Origin: Nitrospinales bacterium
GTDB lineage: Bacteria > Nitrospinota > Nitrospinia > Nitrospinales > VA-1
NCBI GenBank assembly: GCA_047610985.1
Contig: JBLFWU010000003.1
Location: 1-64,000, forward strand
DNA: 64,000 bases
Direction of reading: 5' to 3'
Under the pieces are notes generated by a model that saw only the letters and a list, made by a program, of their open reading frames with translations, was not told the DNA's origin and did not search any database. This document shows, piece after piece, positions 11,740 through 29,455 of this stretch (position 1 is the first letter of the stretch; each line of letters begins with the position of its first letter). Made by a program: the position numbers and the translations under genes.

Positions 11740-11745
11740 ATTATC

Positions 11746-13455: not shown

Positions 13456-13511
13456 ACGGAAAAATATCAGAGAACAAACGCAAAACCTAAAAAACCCGAC
13501 AAAGGCAAACC

Positions 13512-14738: not shown

Positions 14739-14760
14739 ACAAACTCTACGAAGGAAAATT

Positions 14761-15664: not shown

Positions 15665-16232
15665 ACAGGGGTTCTCTCTCCTCGAAGTCGTTGTTGCTCT
15701 GATGATAATGGCTGGGGGATTCCTCGCTGTTCTCAACCTTTTTTCAGGAAGTGTGCGTTCTGTCGGTTTTTCAGGCCAATACCTCAAGGCTGTCACCCTG
15801 GCAAATTCAAAAATGAATGAACTGGAAATTCAAAACTTTATCGTAGAGGACAGTTCTGGGAATTTCAAAAACGAAGAAAATTATCACTGGGAAGTTAACA
15901 TCTCTCCCTACGATTCTGACTTGAACAACGAGAAATCGAGGATTCAATTACAGAAAATTTTATTGAAAGTTTTATGGAACGATGACGGACATACTCGCAA
16001 CATTGAACTAGCAACACTGCGCCTGGAAGGCCAAACCTACCCAGCAGCCGACACACGATTGGAACGGTTATTTTCAGGAGGAGCAGGCAGAACTAATACC
16101 GAGGGAGAAGAAGAGACAGCAGCTCCCGAAACTTCTACACCAAGCACAGGAACAGGAACAGGCGTAAATATCAGTGGTTCCGGTCAAACCAATATCAGCG
16201 GATCGGGGACGCAGAATATTTGCGGAAATTAA
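15654..16232 (+). CDS. Minor pseudopilin GspI-like with low-complexity G/S/T-rich tail
   Basis: TTG start. Prepilin motif EQG/FSLLEVVVALMIMAGG. C-terminal TGTGTGVNISGSGQTNISGSG repeat-like tail. Confidence 0.6.
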   Translation: MKNEQGFSLLEVVVALMIMAGGFLAVLNLFSGSVRSVGFSGQYLKAVTLANSKMNELEIQNFIVEDSSGNFKNEENYHWEVNISPYDSDLNNEKSRIQLQKILLKVLWNDDGHTRNIELATLRLEGQTYPAADTRLERLFSGGAGRTNTEGEEETAAPETSTPSTGTGTGVNISGSGQTNISGSGTQNICGN

Positions 16233-17101
16233 TGAGTCCAATAATAAATCGCATTTCAAAAAATCAATCTGGATTCACCCTGCTTGAGCTGATCTTGTCT
16301 CTAGCTATTGTTGGGATTATTATTGCACTGGGACTCGGCGGTATCCGCCTGGGGATTAGCGCACGCGATGTTGGGGAAAGGAAGGTCGACACCTATCAGC
16401 GTCTACGCATCATCACAGAACAACTCACGCAAAAACTACAATCTACTTATCCTGTTTTTGTTATTCAAAAAGACGGTAGCTCAATCGCACAAAGCCTGTC
16501 TTCTTCTAAAAGAATTATGGCATTTGAGGGAGAATCGAATTCTTTAAGGTTTGTTACTTTTGCATCACCCATAACAACGCAAGAATCCCGGATCCACGAA
16601 GTAAAATTTTATTTAGGCAAACACCCTGAAACTGAAAAATCGGGTCTTATTCTAATGGAGAAGGATATCTCGAAAGGTGATGTTTTCTCTCGGATAATCC
16701 CCAATGCCGAAACCACACGTTATTATTTACTCGCTGAAAATGTTACCGAATTGAAATTCAGATACTATGAAATGAAAAAACTTCCGCCCCAAGAACTGGA
16801 GGATTCTAGCAACAGCCCGACCCACAAAGGAAAATGGGTAAACAGAGTTGTTATGGACCCGTTTCTTATCAATCAAGAAGTGCCAACAAACCCTATTCTT
16901 GCTTTCGAAAAAAATAATAAAATTTCCTTACCGCGAGCAGTTGAAATAACTCTTGGTATTACCCCTAAGGTGAATGAAGAAAACAAGGATACCCAAGAAG
17001 AACCTGAATTGTTTTTTCCGCCACCAATTGTAGTTTTGATCAACTCTGGAATGGAAATTGCAGTTCCTGAGAAGAAGGAAGAAGACAATGAGAAAGCTTA
17101 A
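16232..17101 (+). CDS. Minor pseudopilin GspJ-like
   Basis: TAATG overlap with the previous gene. Prepilin motif QSG/FTLLELILSLAIVGIIIA. Confidence 0.6.
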   Translation: MSPIINRISKNQSGFTLLELILSLAIVGIIIALGLGGIRLGISARDVGERKVDTYQRLRIITEQLTQKLQSTYPVFVIQKDGSSIAQSLSSSKRIMAFEGESNSLRFVTFASPITTQESRIHEVKFYLGKHPETEKSGLILMEKDISKGDVFSRIIPNAETTRYYLLAENVTELKFRYYEMKKLPPQELEDSSNSPTHKGKWVNRVVMDPFLINQEVPTNPILAFEKNNKISLPRAVEITLGITPKVNEENKDTQEEPELFFPPPIVVLINSGMEIAVPEKKEEDNEKA

Positions 17102-18119
17102 AGACAATCAGAGAGGTATTGCCCTTATGGCTGTTCTATGGGTTCTGGTCTTATTAATAGCTTTAGCTACCGAATTTGCTTTTTCAATGAAAATGGAGGT
17201 CAACACTACCCGAAACTACAAAGAAGACACAGAAAGCTATTATTTATCCAGAGCAGGCCTCAATCTGGCTCTGGCAGAGCTTTTTAAAGAAGCCAAATTC
17301 CACTCTATACATGAGGAACATGGTTGGATTACCGGAAATATTATTCCAACTTCTGCCACAAACGAATCCACTCCTTCCCCTGGGCAGGAAAATTCGAATG
17401 CAGAGCAGACCTCTGGTCAAGAGGAATTAGAGAAGGGAGAAGCGGTTCAAGATTTTGACATCGTCAACAGAACCGACATTGAACTGGAAAATGGAAGCAT
17501 CACATATACTATTCGAGATGAAAATGGGAAAATTTCCATTAATTCTGCGAGTAAAAATACTTTGGACAAGCTTCTTCAGTATTCAGGGGTTGAAGACAAA
17601 ATCGAAAGAAGCACCATTTCAGATTCTATACTGGACTGGATTGACACCGATAAAAATCATCGACTCAATGGGGCCGAAGATGATTATTACCGGACACAAA
17701 ATCCACCCTATTACGCAAAAAATGGCCCAATAGAAACAATCGATGAACTTTTGAAGATACGCGGCATCACTGAAGAGATTCTTTATGGCCCTAAGGAAAA
17801 TAATGACGAAAATAAAAAAACAGGGATTGCGGACCATCTCACAGTTTATAAAATTTCCACAGTGAATCCCAATACGGCGAGCAAAGAAGTGTTAAATATT
17901 TTATTCCAATCGGAGCAGGCAAATAAAATTTTGGAGAATAGAAATACTAAAGGTTTCCACTCGAACACGCTATCGAACTTTTTCCACATTACTTCTATAG
18001 GAAAAATAACCGGCAGTCGTACAGAGCATACCGTGAAAACAATATTAGAAAAGAGAATCTCAGGTGGCAAAACACAAATGATAATTCATTACTGGAATGA
18101 CAACGTACTGAACTTATGA
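17088..18119 (+). CDS. gspK: Minor pseudopilin GspK
   Basis: Leader MRKLKDNQRG/IALMAVLWVLVLLIALATEFA, typical of GspK. About 344 aa. Tandem helix-hairpin-helix-like regions. Confidence 0.7.
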   Translation: MRKLKDNQRGIALMAVLWVLVLLIALATEFAFSMKMEVNTTRNYKEDTESYYLSRAGLNLALAELFKEAKFHSIHEEHGWITGNIIPTSATNESTPSPGQENSNAEQTSGQEELEKGEAVQDFDIVNRTDIELENGSITYTIRDENGKISINSASKNTLDKLLQYSGVEDKIERSTISDSILDWIDTDKNHRLNGAEDDYYRTQNPPYYAKNGPIETIDELLKIRGITEEILYGPKENNDENKKTGIADHLTVYKISTVNPNTASKEVLNILFQSEQANKILENRNTKGFHSNTLSNFFHITSIGKITGSRTEHTVKTILEKRISGGKTQMIIHYWNDNVLNL

Positions 18120-19594
18120 AATCTGTCTTTTTAGAAAAATCTTTAGGAATGGATATCCGTGAGGACTCCATCAACCTCACCCTTATAGGGAGAAAGCTGC
18201 GCCTTGCTGAAGTGCTCGCTGGTGAATTCATAGACTTGAAACTGCTGACAGGAAAGGACGAAAAAGCAGAGAAGCATTTCCTGGATCAGGTCAATCGGTT
18301 TCTGGTCGAACAAAACACTTGGCCCGAGTCAGTCATAGTCAGTCTGCCAAGAAGTTTCGTTATGTTTAAAACATTTGAACTCCCGGCACCAGACATGAAA
18401 GCTGTTCAAGCAATGGTAGAGTTTGAGTTGGAACGGCAATTTTCATCGGGCTTAGATGAATTGTACTATACCTACCAACTCAATCAAAAATCTGGGAATA
18501 TTTTCCACATCGCCTCTGCGGCAATTAAAAAAGAAACCGCCAACTATTACCTCGAGCTCATCAAAAAGTTAAACTTAAAAACTACCGTTCTCGACATCTC
18601 AACTTTCGCCAACAGCAATCTTGCTCTGCTACAAGAATCTAAGGATTCTGCTGTAACTGCATTGATCGACATCAGCCCACGCGCCCTGGAAATCGTTCTT
18701 ATTAAAAAAGGTGTTTTAGAGTTCTCTAGAAATAGAACATGGGATAATACAGACATAAAGGACACATACTCAGGGAAAGACAAATCCCCTAGCCAGCTCG
18801 ATAGCCTTTCCGAGTCCACCACCAAATTAATAATCAGCGAATTGGAGCAAGCACTTTCTTCATGCCGAAATATTGAAGAAAATGAATCAATTGAGCATAT
18901 TTTTATTTCGGGTGGCGGCACATTGGCACCCCGAGTCATCAAACAACTGGAAAAAGAAACGCAGGTATCGACACAATGTTTAAGCATTCCCGATTCAGTT
19001 TCCCCTACCCTGCCCGAGTCTTTTTCAACTTATCATATGATGACGGCTTTGAGTCTGGCCATAAGAGATTCCAGAAAGCAAAGTTTTGAAACCAATTTAC
19101 TACCCCCGAGCCTGCGGCCAAAAAGAAGAAAAGCAAACCCAAAAACGTCTCTAGTTCTGGCAGCTGTCTTGGTACTTTGCCTTGTAGGATGGATCGGTAG
19201 CCAAATACACCATAACAACAAAACCCTGGCATCTTTAAACGGTCAATTAGATGAGATAAAGGGCGAAGTTTCTAACTTGGAAAAGATTGATCTAGAATAT
19301 ATTTCAATCCAGCAGTATGTAGATATCCTCAACGCAATCAATAAACAGCACCCACCCAAGCTTCCGCTCTTGGGAAGGTTGAGCCTGTCACTCCCCAAAG
19401 ACACGTGGTTGACAAATATAAAATTCCACAAGGGTGAAATGGAAATAAAAGGCTTTTCGCCTTCGGCTTCAAAGCTGATTCCTCTCATCGAAAAATCACC
19501 TAGTTTTAAGAAAACAGGTTTTATCGGCACAATAATAAGAGAATCTACAGGTGAGAAGTTTACGATTCGTGCGAAATTGGAATCTAATTCATGA
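18116..19594 (+). CDS. GspL-like assembly protein (PilM-like cytoplasmic actin-fold domain, TM segment, PilN/GspL-like periplasmic domain)
   Basis: N-terminus LGMDIREDSINLTLIG resembles the PilM/GspL cyto-domain. Single TM (LVLAAVLVLCLVGWIG) around residue 345, followed by a periplasmic coiled-coil region. Confidence 0.6.
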   Translation: MKSVFLEKSLGMDIREDSINLTLIGRKLRLAEVLAGEFIDLKLLTGKDEKAEKHFLDQVNRFLVEQNTWPESVIVSLPRSFVMFKTFELPAPDMKAVQAMVEFELERQFSSGLDELYYTYQLNQKSGNIFHIASAAIKKETANYYLELIKKLNLKTTVLDISTFANSNLALLQESKDSAVTALIDISPRALEIVLIKKGVLEFSRNRTWDNTDIKDTYSGKDKSPSQLDSLSESTTKLIISELEQALSSCRNIEENESIEHIFISGGGTLAPRVIKQLEKETQVSTQCLSIPDSVSPTLPESFSTYHMMTALSLAIRDSRKQSFETNLLPPSLRPKRRKANPKTSLVLAAVLVLCLVGWIGSQIHHNNKTLASLNGQLDEIKGEVSNLEKIDLEYISIQQYVDILNAINKQHPPKLPLLGRLSLSLPKDTWLTNIKFHKGEMEIKGFSPSASKLIPLIEKSPSFKKTGFIGTIIRESTGEKFTIRAKLESNS

Positions 19595-20169
19595 CCTTAA
19601 ACATTGGAAAAAGAGATAAGACTTTTCTTATTGGTGGTGGAGCTTTTGTAGCCTGCTATCTACTTTTCTTTTTAGTGGCGGAACCCATTTATAAAAAACA
19701 GATAAGCATTGACGAAAAGATAAAGGACAAAATAAACTTCATTGAAAAATACTATGAAGTCCTGAATCAGACTTCCTACTATCAGGCAAAGGACACAGCA
19801 AATAAGAATACTAAAACAACTCTGCAAAAACGCTTTTTCAGCGATAAAGAACCGGGGCTTGCCGCAGCAGGATTGCAAAAATTATTACAAGGATTCTCAA
19901 GAGGTGCTGTAACCATTGAAAAAACCCGAGTTGAAAAACCAAAATATGTCGCAAGAATACTCGCGGTTCCTGTTGAAATCACAGTTCGTTCCAGCCTGAA
20001 GAATCTCGCTCTATTTTTAATGCGGATTGAAAACCATGAAAAATTTTTAGTCATTGAAGAACTTCGATCACGAAGAATAAACAAAAAGGAACCAGAAGAC
20101 CTTCAAACACGCCTATTGATCACAGGCTTTATAAAGGAACTGGAACCAAAAAGCGGAAAACCAATATGA
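19591..20169 (+). CDS. GspM/PilO-like bitopic membrane protein
   Basis: N-terminal TM (FLIGGGAFVACYLLFFLV) followed by a periplasmic domain. Position between the L-like gene and the secretin gene. Confidence 0.5.
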   Translation: MTLNIGKRDKTFLIGGGAFVACYLLFFLVAEPIYKKQISIDEKIKDKINFIEKYYEVLNQTSYYQAKDTANKNTKTTLQKRFFSDKEPGLAAAGLQKLLQGFSRGAVTIEKTRVEKPKYVARILAVPVEITVRSSLKNLALFLMRIENHEKFLVIEELRSRRINKKEPEDLQTRLLITGFIKELEPKSGKPI

Positions 20170-22613
20170 AAAAAAATATTTTCGTCACAATCATAATATC
20201 TCTATCCCTTCTTTTGCCTGGGTGTAGCTTCAATAAAAAGTCGACTATGGATCGATTGAAAAACAAATCGGATTCCGTCGAGTCCATGAAACTCCCGGAT
20301 AAAGATTCTTCATCTCGATCACAAAATAATGTCGAACTGATTGACAATAAAAAACTGAAACGAATCAAACCGCAACAGGAAGCTAAAAAAATCCGCGTAA
20401 CAGGAACCAAGGTTTCCTTACGCCGAGGACCGGGGCCAAAATACTTAAAAATTGGTAATGCGGTAAAAGGCGATGAGTTTGAACTCGTTCGAGTTGAGCG
20501 AGGCTTTGACAATGGCAGAACCTGGTATCTAGTTCGTGACAGTCTGGGGAATAAGTTTTTTATAGCAAAAAATTTGACCTCTATCGTCAAAAAAACTCCG
20601 GCCACTATACGCGCTGAAGCTCCCATGTTTCCCAAAGGGGATACCAACAAAGTTGAAAAAGTAGAACTGCAAAAAAAGCAGGATGCGTCTCTGGATCAAA
20701 TCCAAACCCTTGTAGACGTAGAGCCCAAGCTCCCTGAAGAGCTTCGGGAAGCGAAACATATCACTCTAAATTTTGAAGGTACTGAACTTTACGATGTCAT
20801 CACAACGTTTTGCGAATTACTAAAAATTGACTATGTAATTGAAGGAAGCGTTGAAGGTAAAGTCACACTTCAGACTTTCAATAAAATTCCAGTTGAAGAC
20901 TTATATTCCGTACTCGAGCAGATTCTCGCGTTAAACAATGTTGCGGTTGTAAGAAGTGGAAACTTTTATCGTTTTCTACAAGCACCTGATGCAGCAAAGA
21001 AACCTTTAAGCATTCATTATGGCAATGACCCGAACATCCCTGATAAAGAGCGCATGATCATACAGATCGTGCCTCTACGATACATCTCGGTCGAGTCCAT
21101 GAAAAAAATTATCAGTCCGTTGTTGACGACCAATGCAAGTTTCATTGAAATACCCGAGACCAATAATCTGATGATGATAGAAATGGCCTACAACGTGAAA
21201 CGTATCATCAAAGTTATACAGGCCTTGGATATTGACAAGTTAGCTTCGTCAGATATTCAGCTTTATAAATTACGAAATGCTGATTCGGAAACGTTGGTTA
21301 AGGAACTTGAGGAAATTTTCACATCCATGGGATATAAAGAAGCCCTTGGCGATTCACTTTCTTTCCTTTCACTCACCCGTCTCAATTCCGTGTTGGTTGT
21401 AAATGCTTTTGACAAAATTTTACCGACAATAGAGTTCTGGGTGAACCGGCTCGACCAGCCTGTGTCCGAAGGTGAGGTAAGTACCTTTGTCTACTATGTT
21501 CAAAATGGTGATGCTTCAGCTTTGTCCGGCTTGTTGAATGGAATTTTTACCGGAGAAGGTACCACGGATACAGGAAATAGTTCTTCCACTACGGAAACTA
21601 ATACCGCAGAGGCAAATATATCAGGAGCAACAACTCCTGCATCAACCAGTGCAACCCGCCCCAATCTGGAGCTAACCGGCGGCATCAATGATGATATTGA
21701 GGGAGAGATCACGATCATCCCTGATCCAGACACAAATTCTTTGATAATTCGGACGAGCCCAAGAAACTATCCAGCAATTTTGTCACTTATCAACAAGCTT
21801 GATCTGTTTCCACAGCAGGTTTTGATTGAAGTACTCATTGTTGATCTTTCCGTGGATGAAACAACAAAAATTGGCCTTGACTGGGCAGCGAAAGGTACGG
21901 CCGGGTCAACCACCGTGCAAGGAAGCGTAAATCAAGCTACTACCGGAGCCACTCTCGGAGATTCTATCGGCGCAGTTACAGCTTCATTTCTACAGGGTGG
22001 AAGCTTCATTATCGGCGACCCAGAAAAAGTCATAGCTCGGTTACAGGTTTTTGCGTCCGACTCCAAAGCTAACATACTTGCGAACCCCATACTTGTGACC
22101 ACCGACAACAAAGCGGCAAACATTGCTATTACGGATGAAATTCCTATCGTGCAGGAGGCATCAACACCATCTGGCGGTGGCGCGGTTGTTACCAGTTCCG
22201 TAGAGTACCGTAGCGTTGGAATTAAACTGGAGATCACACCAAAGATCAACTCCGATAACTACGTCAATTTAAAAATCCTACAGGAAATTTCCAGCCGAGG
22301 TGCCGATGTAGGAACCCAGCCTTCTTTCAACACCCGCCAGGTCAATACCGAAGTGGTCTTGAAGGATAACCAGGTTCTTATAATGGGTGGCTTGATGCGA
22401 ACGGATTCGACGGATACAGTTTCGGGTGTGCCCTTCCTGAAAGATCTACCCTTTGTTGGAAAGTTGTTTGGTACAGAATCGACCACTCTTAAAAAGACCG
22501 AGTTGATGATTTTCATCACGCCTCATGTCATTTCCAACAATGAAGACTCGCAATTCGTGACCCGCCAATTCAAAAATCGGTTGCGTGGACTTAAAAAAAA
22601 TAGTCGCTCCTAA
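20166..22613 (+). CDS. gspD: Secretin GspD, lipoprotein form (liposecretin) with N-terminal SH3-like insert
   Basis: Lipobox LLLPGC/SF. SH3b-like stretch (VSLRRGPGPKYLKIGNAVKGDEFELVRVERGFDNGRTWYLV). N0/N1 domains. G/S/T low-complexity linker. Canonical secretin C-domain (…VPFLKDLPFVGKLFGTE…ELMIFITPHVI). Confidence 0.9.
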   Translation: MKKNIFVTIIISLSLLLPGCSFNKKSTMDRLKNKSDSVESMKLPDKDSSSRSQNNVELIDNKKLKRIKPQQEAKKIRVTGTKVSLRRGPGPKYLKIGNAVKGDEFELVRVERGFDNGRTWYLVRDSLGNKFFIAKNLTSIVKKTPATIRAEAPMFPKGDTNKVEKVELQKKQDASLDQIQTLVDVEPKLPEELREAKHITLNFEGTELYDVITTFCELLKIDYVIEGSVEGKVTLQTFNKIPVEDLYSVLEQILALNNVAVVRSGNFYRFLQAPDAAKKPLSIHYGNDPNIPDKERMIIQIVPLRYISVESMKKIISPLLTTNASFIEIPETNNLMMIEMAYNVKRIIKVIQALDIDKLASSDIQLYKLRNADSETLVKELEEIFTSMGYKEALGDSLSFLSLTRLNSVLVVNAFDKILPTIEFWVNRLDQPVSEGEVSTFVYYVQNGDASALSGLLNGIFTGEGTTDTGNSSSTTETNTAEANISGATTPASTSATRPNLELTGGINDDIEGEITIIPDPDTNSLIIRTSPRNYPAILSLINKLDLFPQQVLIEVLIVDLSVDETTKIGLDWAAKGTAGSTTVQGSVNQATTGATLGDSIGAVTASFLQGGSFIIGDPEKVIARLQVFASDSKANILANPILVTTDNKAANIAITDEIPIVQEASTPSGGGAVVTSSVEYRSVGIKLEITPKINSDNYVNLKILQEISSRGADVGTQPSFNTRQVNTEVVLKDNQVLIMGGLMRTDSTDTVSGVPFLKDLPFVGKLFGTESTTLKKTELMIFITPHVISNNEDSQFVTRQFKNRLRGLKKNSRS

Positions 22614-22692
22614 AATGGGCTTCTAAATTTAATTGATATGTGGATTTCAGTGTAAAGGAACTTGGCTTATTGTTTTCTTGAAAACTCAAAAA

Positions 22693-22731
22693 ACCTACGG
22701 ATCCTCAAAAATTGGCACTTGAGGAGTTTTT
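22693..22731 (+). terminator. Weak candidate terminator after gspD
   Basis: tcctcaa-aaattggcac-ttgagga stem-loop followed by gttttt. Confidence 0.35.
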
Positions 22732-22923
22732 CAGTAATTTATTAAAGCTATTTTTTTTCTCATTTTTCCCTCCTCGAAACCCCATAAATGGCTTGAATTC
22801 ATGGTCGATCTAAAGCATTATATAGTTTATTTTTAATATATAATTTCATCGTGTTTGCCCCTCAATGGCATAACAGGATTGGCTATTCGGAAAAAACTCA
22901 ACAAAACACACGTATCCGCCAAA

Positions 22924-23856
22924 ATGAATATGACTAAATCCAAATTTGTTAATAGTTTAGAGTTGATCGGTGGCACTCCATTAGTTAAACTAAATAGCGT
23001 TATCCCTGAAAATGGAGCCAATATCTATGCCAAACTGGAGTTTTTTAATCCGGGAGGCAGCGTAAAAGACCGAATCGCTTTAGCTATGGTAGAAGATGCC
23101 GAGGAAAAGGGCATTTTGAAGCCAGGCTCAACAATAATTGAGCCCACAAGTGGTAACACGGGTATTGGTCTGGCATTGGTTGGGGCTATTAAAGGCTATA
23201 AAGTCATTCTCGTCATGTCTGAAAATATGAGTACTGAACGACGAATGATTCTGGAAAGTTTTGGTGCAAAAGCAGAATTGAGCCGTGCCGAGTTCGGTAT
23301 GGAAGGCACTATAGAACGAGCAGAAGAATTACTTGCAGAGAATCCCGGTTATTTCATGCCGCAGCAGTTTAACAACCCGGCCAATCCGGAAGTCCACAGG
23401 AAAACAACCGGGCCTGAAATCGTTGAGGCGATGGATGGAGAATCGGTAGACGGTTTTGTAGCAGGAATCGGCACCGGAGGAACTATAACCGGTGTGGGAG
23501 AAATTTTAAAACAACATTATGGTGAAGTGAAAATAGTAGGCGTGGAACCTGCAACTTCGGCAGTATTATCTGGAAACCCGCCAGGCCCCCATAAAATTCA
23601 GGGTATTGGGGCAGGTTTCAAACCCAATGTTTTAAACTTTGACCTTTTGGATCGCATCCGACCTGTTTCCGATGAAGATGCCTTTCTTTTTTCTCAAAGA
23701 CTTGCCAAAGAAGAAGGGTTACTCGTAGGCATATCATCCGGGGCCGCCTGTTGCGCCGCCAACGAGGTTGCAAAAGAGCTGGGTCCTGGCAAAAACGTAG
23801 TCGTTATACTGCCTGACACGGGAGAGCGATATTTCAGTTTCAACCAATATTTTTAA
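22924..23856 (+). CDS. cysK: Cysteine synthase A (O-acetylserine sulfhydrylase)
   Basis: PLP-lysine motif SVKDR. Glycine loop TSGNTGIGLA. GTGGT loop. The start is placed at MNMTKSKF…, since the upstream ORF extension looks non-native. Confidence 0.9.
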   Translation: MNMTKSKFVNSLELIGGTPLVKLNSVIPENGANIYAKLEFFNPGGSVKDRIALAMVEDAEEKGILKPGSTIIEPTSGNTGIGLALVGAIKGYKVILVMSENMSTERRMILESFGAKAELSRAEFGMEGTIERAEELLAENPGYFMPQQFNNPANPEVHRKTTGPEIVEAMDGESVDGFVAGIGTGGTITGVGEILKQHYGEVKIVGVEPATSAVLSGNPPGPHKIQGIGAGFKPNVLNFDLLDRIRPVSDEDAFLFSQRLAKEEGLLVGISSGAACCAANEVAKELGPGKNVVVILPDTGERYFSFNQYF

Positions 23857-23922
23857 CTGCATATAAATATACTCAACTTATAAAGTTGGGCTGTCTATTT
23901 ATCATTATGAGGAATTGTTGGA

Positions 23923-25161
23923 ATGGGTTATGTAAAAGGCTTGATCTGCAAAGAGTGTAAAAGAGAATATGCTAAAGAACCAATCCATGTTTGTGAATAT
24001 TGTTTTGGTCCGCTTGAAATCAATTATGACTATGAAGGCATTAAAAAAGTCGTAAGCAAAAAATCTATCGAGTCTGGCCCGCCCTCTATGTGGCGTTATC
24101 AGCCACTACTGCCCATTGACGAAGATCCTAAAGTGGGCCTAAATACAGGCTTCACTCCATTGGTGCGCGCAAAAAACCTGGGTAAAGCTCTGGGAATAAA
24201 CAATCTTTATATAAAAAATGACAGTGTCAATCATCCTACATTTTCCTTTAAAGACCGAGTGGTCGCGGTAGCGGTTTCAAAAGCTATCGAGTTTGGGTTC
24301 GACACGATATCATGTGCTTCAACTGGAAACTTAGCAAACTCTGTTGCCGCTCACGCTGCAGAGGCGGGATTGAAAAGCGTGATTTTTGTTCCTGACGGAC
24401 TGGAAGCGGGAAAAATTCTCGGCACCCTAATTTATGGAACAAAGTTGATAGCAGTTAAAGGGAGCTACGATGATGTCAACCGCTTATGCAGCGAAATTGC
24501 CGTCAATCATAAATGGGCTTTTGTAAATATCAACATTCGTCCCTATTATGGAGATGGTTCCAAATCGTATGGTTATGAAATCGCCGAACAACTGGGATGG
24601 AAAACTCCAGACAACGTTGTTGTTCCTGTTGCTGGCAGTTCACTGATCACAAAAATATGGAAAGCATTTCACGAATTCGAAATGCTAGGACTTGTAGACA
24701 AGGTACAAAGTAAAATTTTTGCTGCACAGGCTACCGGTTGTTCACCCGTTACCACCGCTATCAAAAATGGCAGTGAAAATATTACCCCTGTAAAACCCAA
24801 CACCATTGCCAAGTCCATCGCAATTGGTAATCCCGCTGACGGCTATTATGGAATTAAAACAGCCAACACAAGCGGCGGCTACGGTGAAGATATTAACGAT
24901 GAAGAAATAGTCAAGTCCATGAAGCTGCTTGCAGAAACAGAAGGCATATTTACAGAAACCGCTGGCGGCGTGACGGTAGGAGTTACCAAAAAATTAATCG
25001 AACAAGGACGCATTAAACCCGATGAGACGACAGTAATCTGTATCACCGGGAATGGACTTAAAACCCAAGAAGCTCTGGCCGGCTGCTTTGACGCACCAGC
25101 TGTGATAGAGCCTAATGTAAATAATTTTGAAGATTTTTTTGCCAACAGTTTAACGGTTTAA
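23923..25161 (+). CDS. Threonine-synthase-family PLP enzyme with N-terminal zinc ribbon (MetM-like putative homocysteine synthase using a protein thiocarboxylate)
   Basis: CKEC…CEYC zinc ribbon. PLP lysine in FSFKDR. ThrC-like fold. Immediately followed by a MoaD/ThiS-like carrier gene. Confidence 0.7.
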   Translation: MGYVKGLICKECKREYAKEPIHVCEYCFGPLEINYDYEGIKKVVSKKSIESGPPSMWRYQPLLPIDEDPKVGLNTGFTPLVRAKNLGKALGINNLYIKNDSVNHPTFSFKDRVVAVAVSKAIEFGFDTISCASTGNLANSVAAHAAEAGLKSVIFVPDGLEAGKILGTLIYGTKLIAVKGSYDDVNRLCSEIAVNHKWAFVNINIRPYYGDGSKSYGYEIAEQLGWKTPDNVVVPVAGSSLITKIWKAFHEFEMLGLVDKVQSKIFAAQATGCSPVTTAIKNGSENITPVKPNTIAKSIAIGNPADGYYGIKTANTSGGYGEDINDEEIVKSMKLLAETEGIFTETAGGVTVGVTKKLIEQGRIKPDETTVICITGNGLKTQEALAGCFDAPAVIEPNVNNFEDFFANSLTV

Positions 25162-25173
25162 AAGGAGTAAAGA

Positions 25174-25455
25174 ATGGCTGTAAAAGTAAGAGTACCAACC
25201 CCATTGATGAAGTTGACCGATAACAAGAGTGAAGTAACTGCTGAGGGTTCCAATATAACTGAAATTCTCAACAACCTTGAGTCACAATTTGCAGGCATTA
25301 AAGAACGCATCTGCGAAGAAGATGGCTCTCCGAGAAGGTTCATTAATATTTATCTCAACGAAGACGATATCCGTTTTCTTGATGGGGAAAAAACTGCTGT
25401 AAAAGACGGTGATGAAATTTCAATCATTCCTGCTATCGCGGGTGGAGCTAACTGA
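25174..25455 (+). CDS. MoaD/ThiS-family sulfur-carrier protein (CysO/MetO-like), C-terminus …AIAGGAN
   Basis: 93 aa beta-grasp-sized protein ending GG-AN. Stop overlaps the start of the E1-like gene (TGATG). Confidence 0.75.
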   Translation: MAVKVRVPTPLMKLTDNKSEVTAEGSNITEILNNLESQFAGIKERICEEDGSPRRFINIYLNEDDIRFLDGEKTAVKDGDEISIIPAIAGGAN

Positions 25456-26261
25456 TGTTCGACTTTTCTGATGAGCAGGTTGAACGATACAGCCGCCATA
25501 TCATTCTCCCCGAAGTAGGAGGCGAAGGCCAGAGCAAACTTCTAGAGTCCAAAGTACTGCTTGTTGGTGCCGGTGGACTAGGCTCGCCCGCTGCTTACTA
25601 TCTTGCCGCAGCGGGAATCGGCAATATGGGAATCATCGATTTTGATACGGTTGATCTTAGCAACCTGCAAAGACAAATCATCCATAACACCGAGCGCATA
25701 GGCATGCTCAAAACTGAGTCTGCAAAGAAAACCATTGAAGCTCTCAATCCGGATGTCAAAGTAACTGTATTCAATGAAAAAGTAACTTCAGAAAATATTA
25801 TGCGCCTGTTTGAAGGCTATGACTACATATTGGACGGCACTGACAATTTTGCCACTCGTTACCTCATCAATGATGCTTGTGTGTTGACCGGAAAAACCAA
25901 TATTCATGGCAGTATTTTCCGATTTGAAGGTCAGGTAACTGTCTTCAAACCAAATGATGGCCCTTGTTATCGCTGTTTATACCCTGAACCACCACCACCT
26001 GGCCTTGTACCCAATTGTCAAGAAGGCGGTGTACTTGGTGTTTTAGCAGGCATAATTGGGAACCTGCAAGTTGTGGAAACTTTGAAGCTTATTTTGGGTC
26101 AAGGAGAAACACTGGTCGGGTCATTGCTCTTGTACGATGCGCTAAAAACCGAATTCAGAAAATTAAAACTTAAAAGAGATCCAAAATGTCCTATCTGTAG
26201 TGATAACCCCACGATCACCGAACTAATCGATTACGAAGAGTTCTGTGGACTGTCGCGCTGA
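25455..26261 (+). CDS. MoeB/ThiF-type E1-like adenylyltransferase (MoeZ-like) with C-terminal CxxC pairs
   Basis: Glycine-rich nucleotide loop VGAGGLGSP. CYRC…CPIC zinc motif. 268 aa. Confidence 0.88.
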   Translation: MFDFSDEQVERYSRHIILPEVGGEGQSKLLESKVLLVGAGGLGSPAAYYLAAAGIGNMGIIDFDTVDLSNLQRQIIHNTERIGMLKTESAKKTIEALNPDVKVTVFNEKVTSENIMRLFEGYDYILDGTDNFATRYLINDACVLTGKTNIHGSIFRFEGQVTVFKPNDGPCYRCLYPEPPPPGLVPNCQEGGVLGVLAGIIGNLQVVETLKLILGQGETLVGSLLLYDALKTEFRKLKLKRDPKCPICSDNPTITELIDYEEFCGLSR

Positions 26262-26337
26262 TAAAAACTTTTAAATTCACCCATTGTCCAAGTAAAATAT
26301 TCAGGACAATGGGTTAAATTTTTTCTGAAACAATTAT

Positions 26338-27351
26338 ATGTCATCAAAACCACTGAGCTTTCCAATTCCTTTTGAGGTGCAGGCCCCCACTTGCCCAGTC
26401 ATTACCGACAAATCGGTATTAGACGCAATTGGAAATACCCCTTTAATTCGCATCCATAACCTTGGCAAAGAATATAAGAATGTTGATATTTATGCCAAGG
26501 CCGAATGGAAGAATGCCGGTGGCTCGGTGAAATCGCGTCCCGCCCTCAAAATGATCGAGGACGGAGAGAAATCCGGAAAGCTGACCAAAGATAAAATCAT
26601 TCTCGATTCCACATCTGGCAACACCGGTATCTCTTACGCACTGATAGGGAAAATTAAAGGCTATAAAGTCAAACTCGTCATGCCAGCCAACGTCTGCAAA
26701 GAAAGAAAAGGTCTGATGGCTGAATTTTATGGTGCAGAAATCGTCACTTCAAGCCCATTTGAAGGATCCGATGGTGCAATTATACTCGCCCGTGAAATTT
26801 ATGAAAAAGATCCCGATAAGTATTTCATGCCAGACCAATATAACAATGATTCCAACTGGAAAGCCCATTACGAAACGACAGCACAGGAAATATGGAAACA
26901 AACAAATAACCGTGTAACCCATTTTATTGCGGGGATCGGAACAGGCGGAACAATTATGGGGACTAGCCGGGGCCTACGTGACCTCAATCCCGACATTAAA
27001 TGCTACGCAGTTGAACCCGCAGAATCTTTGCATGGACTCGAAGGGCTAAAGCATATGGAATCATCCATCGTTCCCGGAATCTATAAGGAAGAAGAGCTGG
27101 AGGGCAAAATCAGTGTCCCAACCGAAGAAGCCTACGACATGGTGGAGACACTGGAAAAGCAAGAAGGAATTCTTGTTGGCCATTCATCCGCAGGGGCTTT
27201 GGTGGGCGTTCTCAAGCTTGCAGCAACAATTGAAAGTGGAGTGATTGTTACCGTGTTCCCCGACAGCTGCGAAAGATGCTACGTCAATTTTGGACAAATC
27301 AAAAAAAACAACGAGAACGAACCTACTCATAAGATACCCAATGCCGACTAG
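26338..27351 (+). CDS. cysM: Cysteine synthase B-type (Mtb CysM-like, sulfur-carrier-dependent) with C-terminal extension
   Basis: PLP-Lys motif SVKSRPA. TSGNTGIS loop. GTGGT loop. About 30-aa C-terminal tail, as in CysO-dependent CysM. Confidence 0.85.
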   Translation: MSSKPLSFPIPFEVQAPTCPVITDKSVLDAIGNTPLIRIHNLGKEYKNVDIYAKAEWKNAGGSVKSRPALKMIEDGEKSGKLTKDKIILDSTSGNTGISYALIGKIKGYKVKLVMPANVCKERKGLMAEFYGAEIVTSSPFEGSDGAIILAREIYEKDPDKYFMPDQYNNDSNWKAHYETTAQEIWKQTNNRVTHFIAGIGTGGTIMGTSRGLRDLNPDIKCYAVEPAESLHGLEGLKHMESSIVPGIYKEEELEGKISVPTEEAYDMVETLEKQEGILVGHSSAGALVGVLKLAATIESGVIVTVFPDSCERCYVNFGQIKKNNENEPTHKIPNAD

Positions 27352-27360
27352 CCCTCATCA

Positions 27361-27678
27361 ATGAGCCGCTTCCAAAAACATATTTTCATCTGCATTAACG
27401 AAAGAAAAGCCGATGACAAAAGAGGTTGTTGCGCATCAAGAGGTTCGCTTGACCTTCTTGATCACATCAAGGGACGCGTTCACGAATTAGGATTAAAGGG
27501 GGAAATTCGGATAAACAAGGCCGGGTGCCTAGATGCCTGCGCCCAAGGCCCCACTCTGGTCGTCTATCCTGATGCTATATGGTACGCTCCACGTACGAAG
27601 GAAGATATGGATGAAATCCTAACAGAACATCTCCAGAACGATCACCCCGTAGAACGACTAATCATACCATTCAAGTAA
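27361..27678 (+). CDS. Thioredoxin-like [2Fe-2S] ferredoxin
   Basis: 105 aa. Four Cys in the CC…C…C arrangement (GCCASRG…GCLDACAQGP) typical of NuoE-like or thioredoxin-like ferredoxins. Confidence 0.75.
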   Translation: MSRFQKHIFICINERKADDKRGCCASRGSLDLLDHIKGRVHELGLKGEIRINKAGCLDACAQGPTLVVYPDAIWYAPRTKEDMDEILTEHLQNDHPVERLIIPFK

Positions 27679-27685
27679 TAACAGT

Positions 27686-29455
27686 TTAGCTTTCCACTCT
27701 AGATTGCTCTAACCTTATCTGCGATTGACAGAGCTTGTAGAAAATCCCTTTTTGCTGCAGAAGTTCTTTGCGCTTGCCAAATTCTACGACTTCACCTTTT
27801 CTTAAAACCAAAACTTTATCGACATGCATTAATGTCGATAACCGATGAGCAATTATGATGCTCGTCCGTCCGCGTGTCATTTCTTTAATTCCACTCTGAA
27901 TTTGACGCTCCGTTTCCAAATCAACATTAGAAGTTGCTTCATCAAGTACCAGTATTTTTGGTTCGGCCACAAGCGCTCTGGCAAAAGACAACAACTGCCT
28001 TTGCCCTGAGGAGATATCACCCTTATTCAACACCTGTTCATATTTGAATGGAAGATTGTTGATGAAGTTATGCGAACTGACCGCTTGAGAAATTGACTCT
28101 ATCTCCTCTTGTCCCATTTGTTGGTTTCCTAATCGAATATTATCCAAAATACTCCCAGAAAAAAGAAACACATCTTGTTGCACCAAGGCAATTTGCCTTC
28201 GCAAATCATATTTATTGATATCCTTTATAGAACGGCCATCAAAAAGAATATCGCCCTTTGCTACATCATAAAACTGGCAAAGAGCGTTAATAATAGTGGA
28301 CTTTCCTGAACCCGTAGCACCGACAATAGCAAGACTCTCGCCCGCTTCTAAAGAAAAAGATAAATCCTTCAAAATAAAACGTTCTTCTTTATAAGCAAAC
28401 CAAACATTCTTAAATTCCACAGCACCCTGTAATTTGAAATCATTTTTTGACGGAACGGATTCAGGTATTTGCTCCGGAGTATCGAGCAATTCAAAAATAC
28501 GCTCAGATGATGCCATAGCAGTTTGTATAATATTAAATTTTTCAGCAAGGTCACGGATCGGTTCAAAAAACTTTTGCAAATATTGAATAAATGCGACTAG
28601 AATTCCTAATTGAATCTCATCCTGAACAAACCGTCCACCGCCATACCAAAAAACCATCGCGATCGCCAGGGAACTGAAAAAATCAATAGACGGCATGTAA
28701 AAGGCATTGTATTGAACAGTTCGAAGATCCTCCTTCAACCGCTCTCCATTGACAGACGAAAATTTTCCATAATTCATAGCTTCACGGTTGAAACACTGAA
28801 CTGTATCAACTCCTGAAATATTTTCTTCTAAATAAGAATTGAGCTCTGAAACATGAATACGATTTTTTCTTAGTGCATCCCGTGCCCGAACTCGATACAT
28901 CCTTGTTGCAGTCGCCAAAAATGGAAATACAATACAAACAACCAGAGTAAGTCTCCAATCGAGATAAAACATGACACAGAAAATTCCAAAAAGCGTAAAC
29001 AAATCGCTAAAAACAAGGATAAGTCCTGAAGTCAGCATTTCATTCAGCACCTCCACATCGTTCACCACACGGGTAATCATTCTTCCAATCGGGTTCCTGT
29101 CAAAATAGGAGAACGACATTTTGTGGAGATGAGCAAACACCTTTGAACGAAGATCGAACATGACCTTCTGCCCAATGATCTGCATGAGATAAGTCTGGCA
29201 AAACTGGAATATGAAAGAAAAAAACAACACTGACAAATATACAGCGGCAATGGCATCCAAGCCTTTCATATCGCCTGCTTTTATATGATCATCAATAACG
29301 ACTTTAGTAAGGTAGGGGCCGGCAAGATTCAAAACCGAAACTACCAAAAGGAGTAAGATGGCAAGAGCCACCAAACTCGAATAGGGTTTTAAATGGACAA
29401 GAACCCTTTTAAACAAAATCCAATCTTTATACCTATGACCTTCGTTTTGGAGCAT
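27686..29455 (-). CDS. ABC exporter, fused permease/ATPase, subunit B of a heterodimeric pair
   Basis: Six TM helices followed by an NBD with Walker A GATGSGKST, signature SGGQRQ and Walker B ILVLDEATS. Confidence 0.9.
   Translation of the reverse strand: MLQNEGHRYKDWILFKRVLVHLKPYSSLVALAILLLLVVSVLNLAGPYLTKVVIDDHIKAGDMKGLDAIAAVYLSVLFFSFIFQFCQTYLMQIIGQKVMFDLRSKVFAHLHKMSFSYFDRNPIGRMITRVVNDVEVLNEMLTSGLILVFSDLFTLFGIFCVMFYLDWRLTLVVCIVFPFLATATRMYRVRARDALRKNRIHVSELNSYLEENISGVDTVQCFNREAMNYGKFSSVNGERLKEDLRTVQYNAFYMPSIDFFSSLAIAMVFWYGGGRFVQDEIQLGILVAFIQYLQKFFEPIRDLAEKFNIIQTAMASSERIFELLDTPEQIPESVPSKNDFKLQGAVEFKNVWFAYKEERFILKDLSFSLEAGESLAIVGATGSGKSTIINALCQFYDVAKGDILFDGRSIKDINKYDLRRQIALVQQDVFLFSGSILDNIRLGNQQMGQEEIESISQAVSSHNFINNLPFKYEQVLNKGDISSGQRQLLSFARALVAEPKILVLDEATSNVDLETERQIQSGIKEMTRGRTSIIIAHRLSTLMHVDKVLVLRKGEVVEFGKRKELLQQKGIFYKLCQSQIRLEQSRVES

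What the first reader, a model, noticed from the sequence alone, without database searches (positions are those of the whole stretch)
22924..27678. Sulfur-carrier-protein-dependent cysteine and probable homocysteine biosynthesis cluster with an unprocessed-looking carrier C-terminus (…GGAN)
The cluster encodes CysK, a zinc-ribbon ThrC-family enzyme, a MoaD/ThiS-like carrier, a MoeZ-type E1, a CysO-dependent CysM and a [2Fe-2S] ferredoxin.

The ThrC-like/MoaD pair matches the recently described MetM/MetO-type route, in which O-phosphohomoserine plus a protein thiocarboxylate gives homocysteine. CysM-type enzymes use the same kind of carrier with O-phosphoserine, so one carrier may serve two PLP enzymes.

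The carrier ends GG-AN rather than GG. It would therefore need C-terminal trimming, for example by a JAMM/Mec+-type protease, which is not encoded in the window, before adenylation.
Basis: partly seen in the sequence, partly recalled or inferred. Interest (0 to 1): 0.55.

Follow-up and report, generated by a model that had tools for sequence, protein, structure and literature searches.

The report
Carrier-protein cysteine and homocysteine synthesis operon
A marine nitrite-oxidising bacterium (family Nitrospinaceae) carries one six-gene operon that most likely makes both cysteine and homocysteine using sulfur held on a small carrier protein; this is a new example of two pathways already described in Mycobacterium and Streptomyces, not a new kind of system.

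Summary
Window 22924-27678 (+) encodes six genes:
- CysK
- a zinc-ribbon ThrC-family enzyme
- a 93-aa ThiS/MoaD carrier ending ...AGG-AN
- a ThiF-family E1
- a CysM-like enzyme
- a thioredoxin-like [2Fe-2S] ferredoxin

The window comes from a Nitrospinaceae genome. The six-gene order is the same in every close relative long enough to show it.

The ThrC-like enzyme is not a canonical threonine synthase.
- It sits in a separate clade with 100% bootstrap support.
- Four motifs that the solved threonine synthases share are changed.
- In 70 of 80 genomes from many phyla, a carrier gene follows it directly.
- In 7 of 20 relatives tested, a SAM riboswitch precedes it.
- In other genomes it coexists with a ThrC-type paralogue.

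This fits the MetM/MetO route (Hasebe 2024).

The carrier is CysO-like. Every intact Nitrospinaceae homologue examined has a variable 1-8 residue tail after GG, so trimming is required. No JAMM protease lies in the window or within 10 kb of the cluster in close relatives. Such tails are common in this family and are already known for MetO.

The E1 is MoeB-type, with no rhodanese domain, so the "MoeZ-type" label is wrong.

Verdict: interpretation supported; a new member of a known kind; moderate interest.

The parts
22924..23856 (+). cysK: O-acetylserine sulfhydrylase A-type cysteine synthase (310 aa). This is the direct sulfide route.
   Evidence: TIGR01139 cysK, 434 bits, above the cut-off of 351. 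PALP domain. The 310-aa start matches the 311-aa orthologues in L001 and L003. It is the first gene of the cluster in every Nitrospinaceae locus.
23923..25161 (+). MetM-like PLP enzyme (412 aa): ThrC fold with an N-terminal Cys4 zinc ribbon (C9, C12, C24, C27). Inferred to be a carrier-thiocarboxylate-dependent homocysteine synthase acting on O-phosphohomoserine.
   Evidence: PALP domain and TIGR00260. 34-37% identical to solved ThrCs but 56-65% identical to a clade whose gene is followed by a carrier gene. Clade bootstrap 100%. Motifs are PTFSFKDRVV, STGNLAN, NIRPYYGDGSKS and PVAGSS, against PTGSFKDRGM, STGNTSA, SVNPYRxEGQKT and PVGNAGN in the ThrCs. SAM riboswitches precede relatives.
25174..25455 (+). 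CysO/MetO-like sulfur-carrier protein (93 aa). Gly90-Gly91 is followed by a two-residue tail, Ala-Asn (nt 25447-25452), and the stop codon.
   Evidence: ThiS family, 60 bits. Best solved matches are a 'ThiS/MoaD family protein' chain (4n6e_B, E 1.7e-21) and the chain bound to M. tuberculosis CysM (3dwg_C, E 1.1e-19); both were solved with a free GG end. 118 of 120 homologues have variable 1-8 aa tails after GG. All intact carriers in close Nitrospinaceae-like metagenomic loci are tailed.
25455..26261 (+). MoeB/ThiF-type E1 adenylyltransferase (268 aa). It has CYRC and CPIC zinc motifs and no rhodanese domain. Its start codon overlaps the carrier's stop codon by 1 nt.
   Evidence: ThiF family, 291 bits, and nothing else. 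It matches only the MoeB part (positions 121-384) of PRK08762. Sequence. The MoeB versus MoeZ criterion comes from PMC3227635.
26338..27351 (+). CysM-like PLP enzyme (337 aa). Inferred to be a carrier-thiocarboxylate-dependent cysteine synthase.
   Evidence: TIGR01138 cysM is the best family, 326 bits, below the cut-off of 394. 39% identical to M. tuberculosis CysM. The motif HGLEGLKHMxSSIVPGIY is shared with CysM-like genes that lie within 3 kb of carrier and JAMM genes in L004, L005, L011, L028 and L044 (also L069 with a JAMM gene and L045 with a carrier gene). It aligns to Mtb EGVYALRNMDEGFVPELY.
27361..27678 (+). Thioredoxin-like [2Fe-2S] ferredoxin (105 aa). It starts 9 nt after cysM-like ends. 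Its role in the cluster is unknown.
   Evidence: NF041612 2Fe-2S ferredoxin, 87 bits; PF01257, 22.6 bits; both below their cut-offs. It is the last cluster gene in every close Nitrospinaceae-like locus long enough to show it. It is absent from the clusters of other phyla.

Best explanation
This is a single operon for sulfur amino acid synthesis in a Nitrospinaceae genome. It joins the mycobacterial CysO/CysM-type cysteine route and the Streptomyces MetM/MetO-type homocysteine route around one carrier and one E1, with the ordinary sulfide-dependent CysK alongside.

Proposed mechanism, step by step:
1. The 93-aa carrier is made with a short tail after Gly-Gly. An unlinked hydrolase removes the tail, most likely a JAMM/Mec-type metalloprotease. 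The need for removal is inferred from the hypervariable tails. The identity of the protease is not shown.
2. The MoeB-type E1 adenylates the exposed C-terminal glycine. This is inferred from family membership.
3. The acyl-adenylate is converted to a thiocarboxylate. The sulfur would come from sulfide (N. gracilis has a complete sulfate-to-sulfide pathway with a ferredoxin-dependent sulfite reductase) or from an unlinked persulfide donor, because the E1 has no rhodanese domain. This step is inferred.
4. The MetM-like enzyme eliminates phosphate from O-phosphohomoserine. The carrier thiocarboxylate then adds at the gamma carbon, and hydrolysis of the adduct releases homocysteine. The substrate and chemistry are inferred from the S. 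albulus system. Clade membership, carrier linkage and SAM-riboswitch control of relatives are shown.
5. The CysM-like enzyme does the equivalent beta-replacement on O-phosphoserine or O-acetylserine to give a carrier-cysteine adduct, which the same hydrolase cleaves. This is inferred from context and from the M. tuberculosis precedent.
6. The linked ferredoxin may feed the ferredoxin-dependent sulfite reductase or a reductive sulfur-transfer step. This is speculation.
For: - All six genes are present with operon-like spacing.
- Gene order CysK-MetM-carrier-E1-CysM-Fdx is the same in two complete Nitrospinota genomes. It holds in every close (>=82% identity) metagenomic locus long enough to show it.
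- The MetM-like clade has 100% bootstrap support. It excludes the solved ThrCs and the second paralogues.
- All four solved ThrCs share four motifs (PTGSFKDRGM, STGNT[SA]A, NPxRxEGQKT, PVGNAGN). The clade replaces all four.
- A carrier gene lies just downstream of the MetM-like gene in 70 of 80 genomes from cyanobacteria, Nitrospirota, Planctomycetota, Chloroflexota, Acidobacteriota, Desulfobacterota and others.
- A SAM-I riboswitch (62-92 bits) lies directly upstream of the MetM-like gene in L009, L012, L067, L072, L073 and L082, and in Micromonospora L084. This matches the reported riboswitch before S. albulus metM (PMC12172450).
- A ThrC-type paralogue lies in the same locus in L006, L007, L013, L037 and L038. 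Cyanobacteria are reported to keep two copies.
- The carrier's best solved matches are a ThiS/MoaD family protein (4n6e_B) and the carrier chain bound to M. tuberculosis CysM (3dwg_C).
- Clusters with MetM-like, CysM-like, one carrier, an E1 and a confirmed Prok-JAB gene exist in L004, L005, L011, L028 and L044.
- The CysM-like enzymes of those clusters share a motif with the window's enzyme.
- Tails are universal and hypervariable in Nitrospinaceae.
- The pathway chemistry is described in PMC3227635 and in the GapMind 2026 preprint.
- N. gracilis has sulfate assimilation with a ferredoxin-sulfite reductase (PMC3578206).
Against: - No enzyme activity is shown for any Nitrospinota protein.
- I could not obtain the S. 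albulus MetM or MetO sequences or the primary paper. The link to the characterised enzyme is therefore indirect: a cyanobacterial homologue reported as 51.6% identical to MetM, plus the shared riboswitch.
- The cyanobacterial member of the clade was reported to have weak threonine synthase and deaminase activity in vitro, and not to raise methionine in vivo (PMC12172450).
- No JAMM gene lies in the window or within 10 kb of the cluster in relatives, so an essential pathway component is unaccounted for.
- No riboswitch precedes the window's cluster.
- The CysM-like protein scores higher against E. coli-type CysM than against Mtb CysM. It has Lys where Mtb has Arg220.
- Whether Nitrospinaceae have a separate canonical ThrC, or canonical MetX/MetY enzymes, was not testable.
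Confidence: 0.75

Rival explanations
1. The ThrC-like gene is a genuine threonine synthase, as every public annotation names it. The carrier and E1 would then serve only the CysM-like enzyme, as in the M. tuberculosis CysO/CysM route. Its position next to the carrier gene would be incidental.
For: It passes the TIGR00260 thrC cut-off (306 bits against 167). Sources name its homologues 'threonine synthase'. The cyanobacterial clade member showed some threonine synthase activity in vitro (PMC12172450). I could not show that Nitrospinaceae have a second ThrC.
Against: It belongs to a separate clade with 100% bootstrap support, only 34-37% identical to solved ThrCs. Four motifs that all four solved ThrCs share are replaced across the whole clade. 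A carrier gene follows in 70 of 80 genomes, including the many that have no CysM nearby. A SAM riboswitch, which signals methionine rather than threonine control, precedes 7 of 20 relatives tested. ThrC-type paralogues coexist in the same loci.
Confidence: 0.08
2. The carrier and E1 pair works mainly in another thiocarboxylate pathway (molybdopterin, thiamin or tRNA thiolation) or as a ubiquitin-like protein modifier (SAMP/TtuB-like). It would merely be co-located with amino acid genes.
For: The best NCBIfam hits of the carrier are SAMP1 and archaeal MoaD. The E1 hits MoeB and the SAMP-activating E1. All of these are below their cut-offs. Nitrospinaceae need molybdopterin for nitrite oxidoreductase (PMC3578206). 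From my memory of Sasaki et al. 2014 (not checked here), one E1 can serve several carriers.
Against: The carrier matches the chain bound to M. tuberculosis CysM (3dwg_C, E 1e-19) far better than the bacterial moaD model (E 0.003). The carrier and the MetM-like gene are linked across phyla. No MoaE, ThiG or tRNA-thiolation gene was seen among the window ORFs scanned.
Confidence: 0.07
3. The tail is removed by something other than a JAMM protease, or it is a regulatory cap that keeps the carrier inactive until needed. Nitrospinaceae would then have replaced the cluster-linked JAMM found in other phyla.
For: No JAMM gene lies within 10 kb of the cluster in any close Nitrospinaceae-like locus, or anywhere in the 64-kb window. 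In L011 the JAMM gene follows cysM directly, which is the slot the ferredoxin fills here. A cytoplasmic C39-like cysteine peptidase is encoded at 61736-62434. From general knowledge, the C39 family cuts after Gly-Gly.
Against: Tailed carriers without a linked JAMM gene are also common in other phyla, so lack of linkage says little. The described thiocarboxylate amino-acid systems use a Mec/JAMM hydrolase both for maturation and for adduct release (the Wolinella HcyD and Pseudomonas QbsD examples are from memory). The C39 match is weak (25-27 bits) and the gene is 34 kb away.
Confidence: 0.1

Closest known systems
MetM/MetO O-phosphohomoserine-to-homocysteine route of Streptomyces albulus (Hasebe et al. 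2024, AEM; summarised in the GapMind 2026 preprint and PMC12172450)
   Same: A ThrC-homologous PLP enzyme, usually misannotated as threonine synthase, is encoded next to a small ThiS/MoaD carrier. The carrier needs C-terminal maturation, and an E1 makes the thiocarboxylate. Relatives of the window's enzyme carry the same SAM-riboswitch control reported for metM.
   Different: Here the pair sits in one operon with cysK, a CysM-like gene, the E1 and a ferredoxin. There is no riboswitch. The E1 is MoeB-type without a rhodanese domain, rather than MoeZ. No Mec/JAMM gene is nearby. Direct sequence comparison with S. albulus MetM was not possible.
CysO/CysM/Mec+/MoeZR cysteine pathway of Mycobacterium tuberculosis
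   Same: The carrier matches the carrier chain (3dwg_C) bound to M. tuberculosis CysM at E 1e-19 over its full length. The CysM-like enzyme is 39% identical to Mtb CysM and shares the deletion and the L-[KR]-x-M...VPxxY motif. The chemistry follows PMC3227635.
   Different: The solved mycobacterial carrier chain ends in a free GG, whereas this carrier has a tail. The Mtb E1 has a rhodanese domain and lacks the CXXC pair. From memory, the mec gene is adjacent to cysO and cysM in M. tuberculosis; here no JAMM gene is linked. Arg220 of Mtb CysM is Lys here.
HcyS/HcyD/HcyF/MetY methionine pathway of Wolinella succinogenes (Krishnamoorthy and Begley 2011; from memory, not checked here)
   Same: A carrier made with an extra C-terminal residue (HcyS-Ala) that a JAMM protease removes. 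The E1 has no rhodanese domain and sulfide is used directly. The carrier thiocarboxylate is the sulfur donor for homocysteine. 51 of 120 Nitrospinaceae carriers end GG-A.
   Different: In Wolinella the PLP enzyme is a MetY-type O-acetylhomoserine sulfhydrylase (fold type I), not a ThrC-fold enzyme. The substrate is O-acetylhomoserine, not O-phosphohomoserine.
Canonical threonine synthase (ThrC; solved structures 2zsj, 1uim, 6cgq, 2d1f)
   Same: Same fold and PLP lysine motif (SFKDR). Probably the same substrate, O-phosphohomoserine.
   Different: 34-37% identity and a separate clade. Tth ThrC positions Thr88, Ser155, Arg160 and Asn188 (numbering) are replaced by Leu, Asn, Tyr and Gly. That these residues bind the substrate phosphate is my recollection of Omi et al. 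2003, not verified here.

Membership tests
MetM (carrier-dependent homocysteine synthase, ThrC homologue) | ThrC-fold PLP enzyme that forms a lineage distinct from canonical threonine synthases | tested here: met
   NJ tree of 43 sequences, 200 bootstraps. The clade holding the window protein has 100% support. It excludes four solved ThrCs and five ThrC-type second paralogues.
MetM (carrier-dependent homocysteine synthase, ThrC homologue) | Gene adjacent to a ThiS/MoaD-type carrier gene (metO) | tested here: met
   The carrier gene starts 12 nt downstream in the window. The same arrangement is found in 70 of 80 genome loci and in nearly all metagenomic loci.
MetM (carrier-dependent homocysteine synthase, ThrC homologue) | Methionine-pathway regulation (SAM riboswitch upstream, as reported for S. 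albulus metM) | tested here: not met
   No Rfam match in the window at the gathering threshold, and none at E<=1 across 22400-27800. The feature is met in 7 of 20 clade relatives tested. This supports the function of the clade but is absent from this locus.
MetM (carrier-dependent homocysteine synthase, ThrC homologue) | Close sequence relationship to the characterised S. albulus MetM | not testable with these tools
   The paper is not held, and no Streptomyces sequence was returned by any search. Indirect evidence: the M. aeruginosa homologue is reported as 51.6% identical to MetM, and cyanobacterial clade members are 58-59% identical to the window protein.
MetM (carrier-dependent homocysteine synthase, ThrC homologue) | Forms homocysteine from O-phosphohomoserine and carrier thiocarboxylate | not testable with these tools
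   This needs biochemistry.
CysO/MetO sulfur-carrier proteins | ThiS/MoaD beta-grasp protein with a C-terminal Gly-Gly that can be exposed | tested here: met
   PF02597, 60 bits. It aligns end to end with the chain bound to Mtb CysM (3dwg_C) and with 4n6e_B up to the GG. The two-residue tail after GG is variable among orthologues.
MoeZ/MoeZR-type E1 | C-terminal rhodanese domain; first CXXC motif replaced by NYRD and second motif missing (PMC3227635) | tested here: not met
   Only a ThiF domain is present in 268 aa. The sequence has CYRC and CPIC. The criterion is quoted. It is a MoeB/ThiF-type E1.
M. tuberculosis-type CysM (carrier-dependent O-phosphoserine sulfhydrylase) | Arg220, reported to select O-phosphoserine (my recollection of Agren et al. 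2008; that paper is listed as a reference) | tested here: inconclusive
   The aligned residue is Lys (LKHM against LRNM) in the window and in all cluster-linked CysM-like proteins.
M. tuberculosis-type CysM (carrier-dependent O-phosphoserine sulfhydrylase) | Encoded together with the carrier and the Mec/JAMM hydrolase | tested here: inconclusive
   The carrier and E1 are adjacent, but no JAMM gene is in the window. Orthologous CysM-like genes in L004, L005, L011, L028 and L044 do lie close to carrier and JAMM genes.
Mec/JAMM (Prok-JAB) maturation and release hydrolase | A PF14464 protein with the HxH...S..D motif encoded with the system | tested here: not met
   Absent from the window and from the 10-kb flanks of L001, L003 and all close metagenomic relatives. 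The rest of the genome could not be searched.

The most novel reading that the evidence does not exclude
Nitrospinaceae may have no JAMM/Mec hydrolase for this system. The always-present, hypervariable carrier tail would then be removed, and the carrier-amino acid adducts resolved, by a different enzyme (for example the cytoplasmic C39-like Gly-Gly peptidase at 61736-62434). The ferredoxin that follows cysM-like here, the slot a JAMM gene fills in L011, would take part directly in reductive thiocarboxylate formation. That would be a mechanistically new way of running a protein-thiocarboxylate pathway in the ocean's main nitrite oxidisers.
Probability: 0.1. Interest if true: 0.6.

Novelty: new member of a known kind. 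Interest (0 to 1): 0.35.

Why it matters
Nitrospinaceae are the dominant marine nitrite oxidisers. The genome papers I could search describe sulfate assimilation but not how sulfur enters methionine.

Every database names the key enzyme "threonine synthase". Automated metabolic reconstructions of these organisms, and of the many cyanobacteria, Nitrospirota, Planctomycetota and Chloroflexota that share the gene pair, will therefore mis-assign it. They may also report a false gap in methionine synthesis.

The motif signature, the carrier adjacency and the SAM-riboswitch association found here give a practical rule for re-annotating this clade. The biology itself follows two published pathways.

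Tried and rejected
- **JAMM gene in the window.** The motif regex found nothing. An HMM built from 14 cluster-linked JAMM ORFs gave a best E-value of 3. Pfam scans of 30 other window ORFs found no rhodanese, cysteine desulfurase, MetX/MetY, ThrB or JAMM gene.
- **Riboswitch or other RNA element before or inside the cluster.** None was found. The promoter and terminator scans were uninformative: 18 promoter-like sites against about 11 expected, and 3 terminator-like sites against about 6 expected.
- **Primary MetM/MetO paper (PMC11497804).** It is not held.
- **Reaching a Streptomyces MetM.** I searched from an actinobacterial clade member, but only Micromonosporaceae came back. That search did lead to the SAM riboswitch in Micromonospora.
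- **Nitrospina literature.** The main text of two papers and the supplement of one mention no thrC, JAMM, CysO or homocysteine genes.
- **First tree attempt.** It timed out and was redone with a faster distance method.
- **Zinc ribbon as a MetM marker.** Rejected, because representatives with canonical ThrC motifs (P0316, P0370, P0382) also have the ribbon. The Pfam 'NinF' hit on the ribbon is below its cut-off and spurious.
- **ThrC phosphate-site residues.** I could not confirm them from the literature, so the residue roles are given from memory only.

Full report

Yes. The spacing fits an operon:
- cysK to the ThrC-like gene: 66 nt.
- ThrC-like gene to the carrier: 12 nt.
- The carrier's stop codon overlaps the E1 start codon by one base.
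- E1 to the CysM-like gene: 76 nt.
- CysM-like gene to the ferredoxin: 9 nt.

A convergent ABC-transporter gene ends 7 nt after the ferredoxin.

Pfam and NCBIfam give these assignments:
- CysK (TIGR01139, 434 bits, above its cut-off).
- A PALP-domain protein that passes the thrC model (306 bits) and has an N-terminal Cys4 ribbon.
- A ThiS-family protein of 93 aa ending IIPAIAGGAN.
- A 268-aa protein made only of a ThiF domain.
- A CysM/CysK-family protein whose best model is cysM, below its cut-off.
- A thioredoxin-like [2Fe-2S] ferredoxin, with weak but consistent hits.

**2. Source organism and conservation**

The nearest homologues of the ThrC-like protein are 81-97% identical. Where they are named, they come from Nitrospinota or Nitrospinaceae. 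ATP-citrate lyase in the window fits that assignment.

The order CysK, ThrC-like, carrier, E1, CysM-like, ferredoxin is identical in Ca. Nitrohelix vancouverensis and in a second 4-Mb Nitrospinota genome. It is also unchanged in every close (>=82% identical) metagenomic locus long enough to show it. One 80%-identical locus (L120) lacks the E1 gene.

**3. Is the ThrC-like enzyme a threonine synthase?**

The evidence says no, on five counts.
- **Distant identity.** It is 34-37% identical to the solved ThrCs of Aquifex, Thermus, Bacillus and Mycobacterium. It is 56-65% identical to a large set of proteins from other phyla.
- **Separate clade.** In a neighbour-joining tree of 43 sequences, that set plus the window protein forms a bipartition found in 200 of 200 bootstrap replicates. 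The solved ThrCs group elsewhere, together with second ThrC-like paralogues taken from the same loci.
- **Changed motifs.** Four motifs are the same in all four solved ThrCs and are replaced throughout the clade: PTGSFKDRGM becomes PT[FLH]S[FY]KDRVV, STGNT[SA]A becomes STGNLAN, NPYRxEGQKT becomes RPYYxEGSKT, and PVGNAGN becomes P[VM]A[GS]GS. In Thermus numbering (derived) these changes include Thr88, Ser155, Arg160 and Asn188. I recall these residues as the substrate-phosphate site (Omi et al. 2003), but I could not confirm that from a held paper.
- **Gene context.** In 70 of 80 genome loci a ThiS-family gene lies just downstream. These loci come from cyanobacteria, Nitrospirota, Planctomycetota, Chloroflexota, Acidobacteriota, Desulfobacterota and others.
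- **Regulation.** A SAM-I riboswitch at 62-92 bits lies directly upstream of the clade gene in 6 of 19 loci scanned, and in Micromonospora coriariae. SAM riboswitches control methionine and SAM genes. The same element is reported upstream of S. albulus metM (PMC12172450).

Canonical ThrC-type paralogues sit in the same loci in three Nitrospirota and two Nostoc genomes. Cyanobacteria are reported to keep two thrC copies, one of them in a 'distinctive lineage'.

The zinc ribbon is not diagnostic, because some representatives with canonical ThrC motifs also have it.

One gap remains. I never obtained the S. albulus sequence, so the link to the characterised enzyme is indirect.

**4. The carrier and its tail**

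The carrier's best solved relatives are 4n6e_B, deposited as a ThiS/MoaD family protein (E 1.7e-21), and 3dwg_C, the carrier chain bound to M. tuberculosis CysM (E 1.1e-19). From memory these are the CysO proteins of Amycolatopsis orientalis and M. tuberculosis. The alignment runs right up to the GG. The bacterial moaD model scores only E 0.003.

Of the 120 closest homologues, 118 have a tail of 1-8 residues after GG. None of these 118 ends in a bare GG. The two exceptions are one sequence with a different C-terminus and one ending ...AGWA. The tail varies freely in length and sequence: A in 51 cases, then VHR, TGAR, AI, VLG and others. Its first residue is small or aliphatic. All intact carriers in the close metagenomic loci are also tailed, and the 96%-identical loci carry the same AN.

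A segment that is always present but unconstrained looks like a removed propeptide. An E1 cannot adenylate an internal glycine, so trimming is required.

The tail is not unusual for this family. Among carriers next to MetM-like genes in other phyla:
- 41 end in a bare GG (mostly cyanobacteria).
- 26 have tails of 1-7 residues.
- 6 carry an ~80-aa NIL domain (PF09383) fused after the GG.

In one further locus (L030) the carrier is fused to the E1 in a single ORF.

GapMind 2026 lists Mec as required for maturation of MetO.

**5. The missing protease**

The window has no JAMM protein by motif or by HMM. L001 and L003, including 10 kb on each side of the gene, also have none. Neither does any close Nitrospinaceae-like metagenomic locus.

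JAMM genes, confirmed as Prok-JAB by Pfam, are cluster-linked in 14 of the 80 loci from other phyla. They include all six loci with NIL-fused carriers and the locus with the E1-fused carrier. In L011 the order is carrier, E1, CysM, JAMM. In Nitrospinaceae the ferredoxin follows the CysM-like gene in the slot that JAMM fills there.

The described pathways need this hydrolase twice: for maturation and for release of the amino acid from the carrier adduct. An unlinked JAMM gene is therefore the most likely answer, but I could not search the rest of any Nitrospinaceae genome.

**6. The E1**

The E1 has a ThiF domain only, with CYRC and CPIC motifs. PMC3227635 gives the distinguishing criterion: MoeZ-type proteins have NYRD in place of the first CXXC, lack the second, and usually carry a rhodanese domain.

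Without a rhodanese domain, the sulfur must come from free sulfide or from an unlinked persulfide donor. N. gracilis has a complete sulfate-to-sulfide pathway with a ferredoxin-dependent sulfite reductase. This also offers a plausible, untested role for the linked ferredoxin.

**7. The CysM-like enzyme**

It is 39% identical to M. tuberculosis CysM. I verified my recalled query sequence as identical to PDB chain 3dwg_A. It scores somewhat higher against E. coli-type CysM.

It shares a six-residue deletion and the motif HG[LI]EGLKHMxx[SA]IxPxIY with the CysM-like genes linked to carrier or JAMM genes in L004, L005, L011, L028, L044, L045 and L069. That motif aligns with EGVYALRNMDEGFVPELY of the Mtb enzyme. 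The window's CysK has the ordinary PGPHKIQGIGAGF motif instead. Mtb Arg220 corresponds to Lys here.

Carrier dependence is therefore a reasonable inference from context, not a demonstrated property.

Clusters holding both a MetM-like and a CysM-like gene but only one carrier gene occur in several phyla. This makes 'one carrier, two PLP enzymes' plausible and shows it is not peculiar to Nitrospinaceae.

**8. Comparison with known systems, and novelty**

The cluster combines two published pathways:
- CysO/CysM/Mec/MoeZ of M. tuberculosis.
- MetM/MetO/Mec/MoeZ of S. albulus.

Its tailed carrier and rhodanese-less E1 also resemble the Wolinella HcyS system (from memory).

It differs in four ways: everything sits in one operon with cysK and a ferredoxin, the E1 is MoeB-type, there is no riboswitch, and there is no linked JAMM gene.

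Nothing here requires new chemistry. I rate it a new member of a known kind, of moderate interest. Its main value is as a correction to the universal 'threonine synthase' annotation in an ecologically important group.

The only route to something truly new is the unaccounted protease and the ferredoxin. I give that reading about 10%.

Noticed in passing
L004:11288-11803, L005:11275-11790, L011:3020-3535, L016:8709-9242, L018:6334-6906, L044:3326-3856: Carriers next to MetM-like genes in Desulfobacterota, Planctomycetia, Sumerlaeota and unclassified-bacterium loci have an ~80-aa NIL domain (PF09383) fused directly after the Gly-Gly. From memory, this domain is known from MetN and from methanogen homocysteine-synthesis proteins. 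Each of these six loci also encodes a JAMM protease, so the NIL domain must be cleaved off or act as a regulatory cap.
   Followed up: partly
L030:11235-12302: In an Actinomycetota MAG the carrier (ThiS domain, residues 4-90) and the ThiF E1 (residues 100-335) are one ORF. A JAMM gene lies upstream at 8425-8856.
   Followed up: partly
L009:4502-4620, L012:4807-4927, L067:2900-3012, L072:7906-8038, L073:428-578, L082:1777-1975, L084:5855-5990: SAM-I riboswitches (62-92 bits) lie directly upstream of genes annotated 'threonine synthase' in seven genomes from different phyla. This is a simple flag for re-annotating them as methionine-pathway enzymes.
   Followed up: yes
L010, L017, L022, L026, L033, L035 (around 8000-13200 in each): Nitrospirota-type loci (Nitrospirota MAGs plus a Ca. 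Manganitrophaceae MAG) have the order CysK-like, E1, MetM-like, carrier, second E1. A JAMM gene follows in all but L010, whose contig ends about 430 nt after the second E1. Two ThiF-type E1 genes therefore flank one carrier gene. The reason is unknown.
   Followed up: no
window 61736-62434 (+): A 232-aa protein without a signal peptide. It has a weak Peptidase C39/C39_2 match (25-27 bits, catalytic-Cys-like MCGPAS) and a Cys-rich, zinc-ribbon-like C-terminal half. From general knowledge, C39 peptidases cut after Gly-Gly. Any link to carrier trimming is pure speculation.
   Followed up: partly
L120:9045-13300; L123:5814-7400; L125:10001-11600: More distant relatives of the window's cluster vary. 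L120 (80% identical) has the cluster without the E1 gene. L123 and L125 (75% identical) keep only the MetM-like gene and the carrier.
   Followed up: no
window 11746-22613 (+): Immediately upstream of the cluster is a type II secretion / type IV pilus-like gene set. Its T2SS protein F, PilM/PilN-like protein and an 815-aa secretin gene lie in the same order and position in L001 and L003.
   Followed up: no
window 333-1803 (-) and 54566-55834 (-): A di-haem cytochrome c peroxidase and methionine sulfoxide reductase MsrA lie at the left end of the window. An ATP-citrate lyase subunit (reductive TCA cycle) lies further right. Both fit a Nitrospina-type organism.
   Followed up: no
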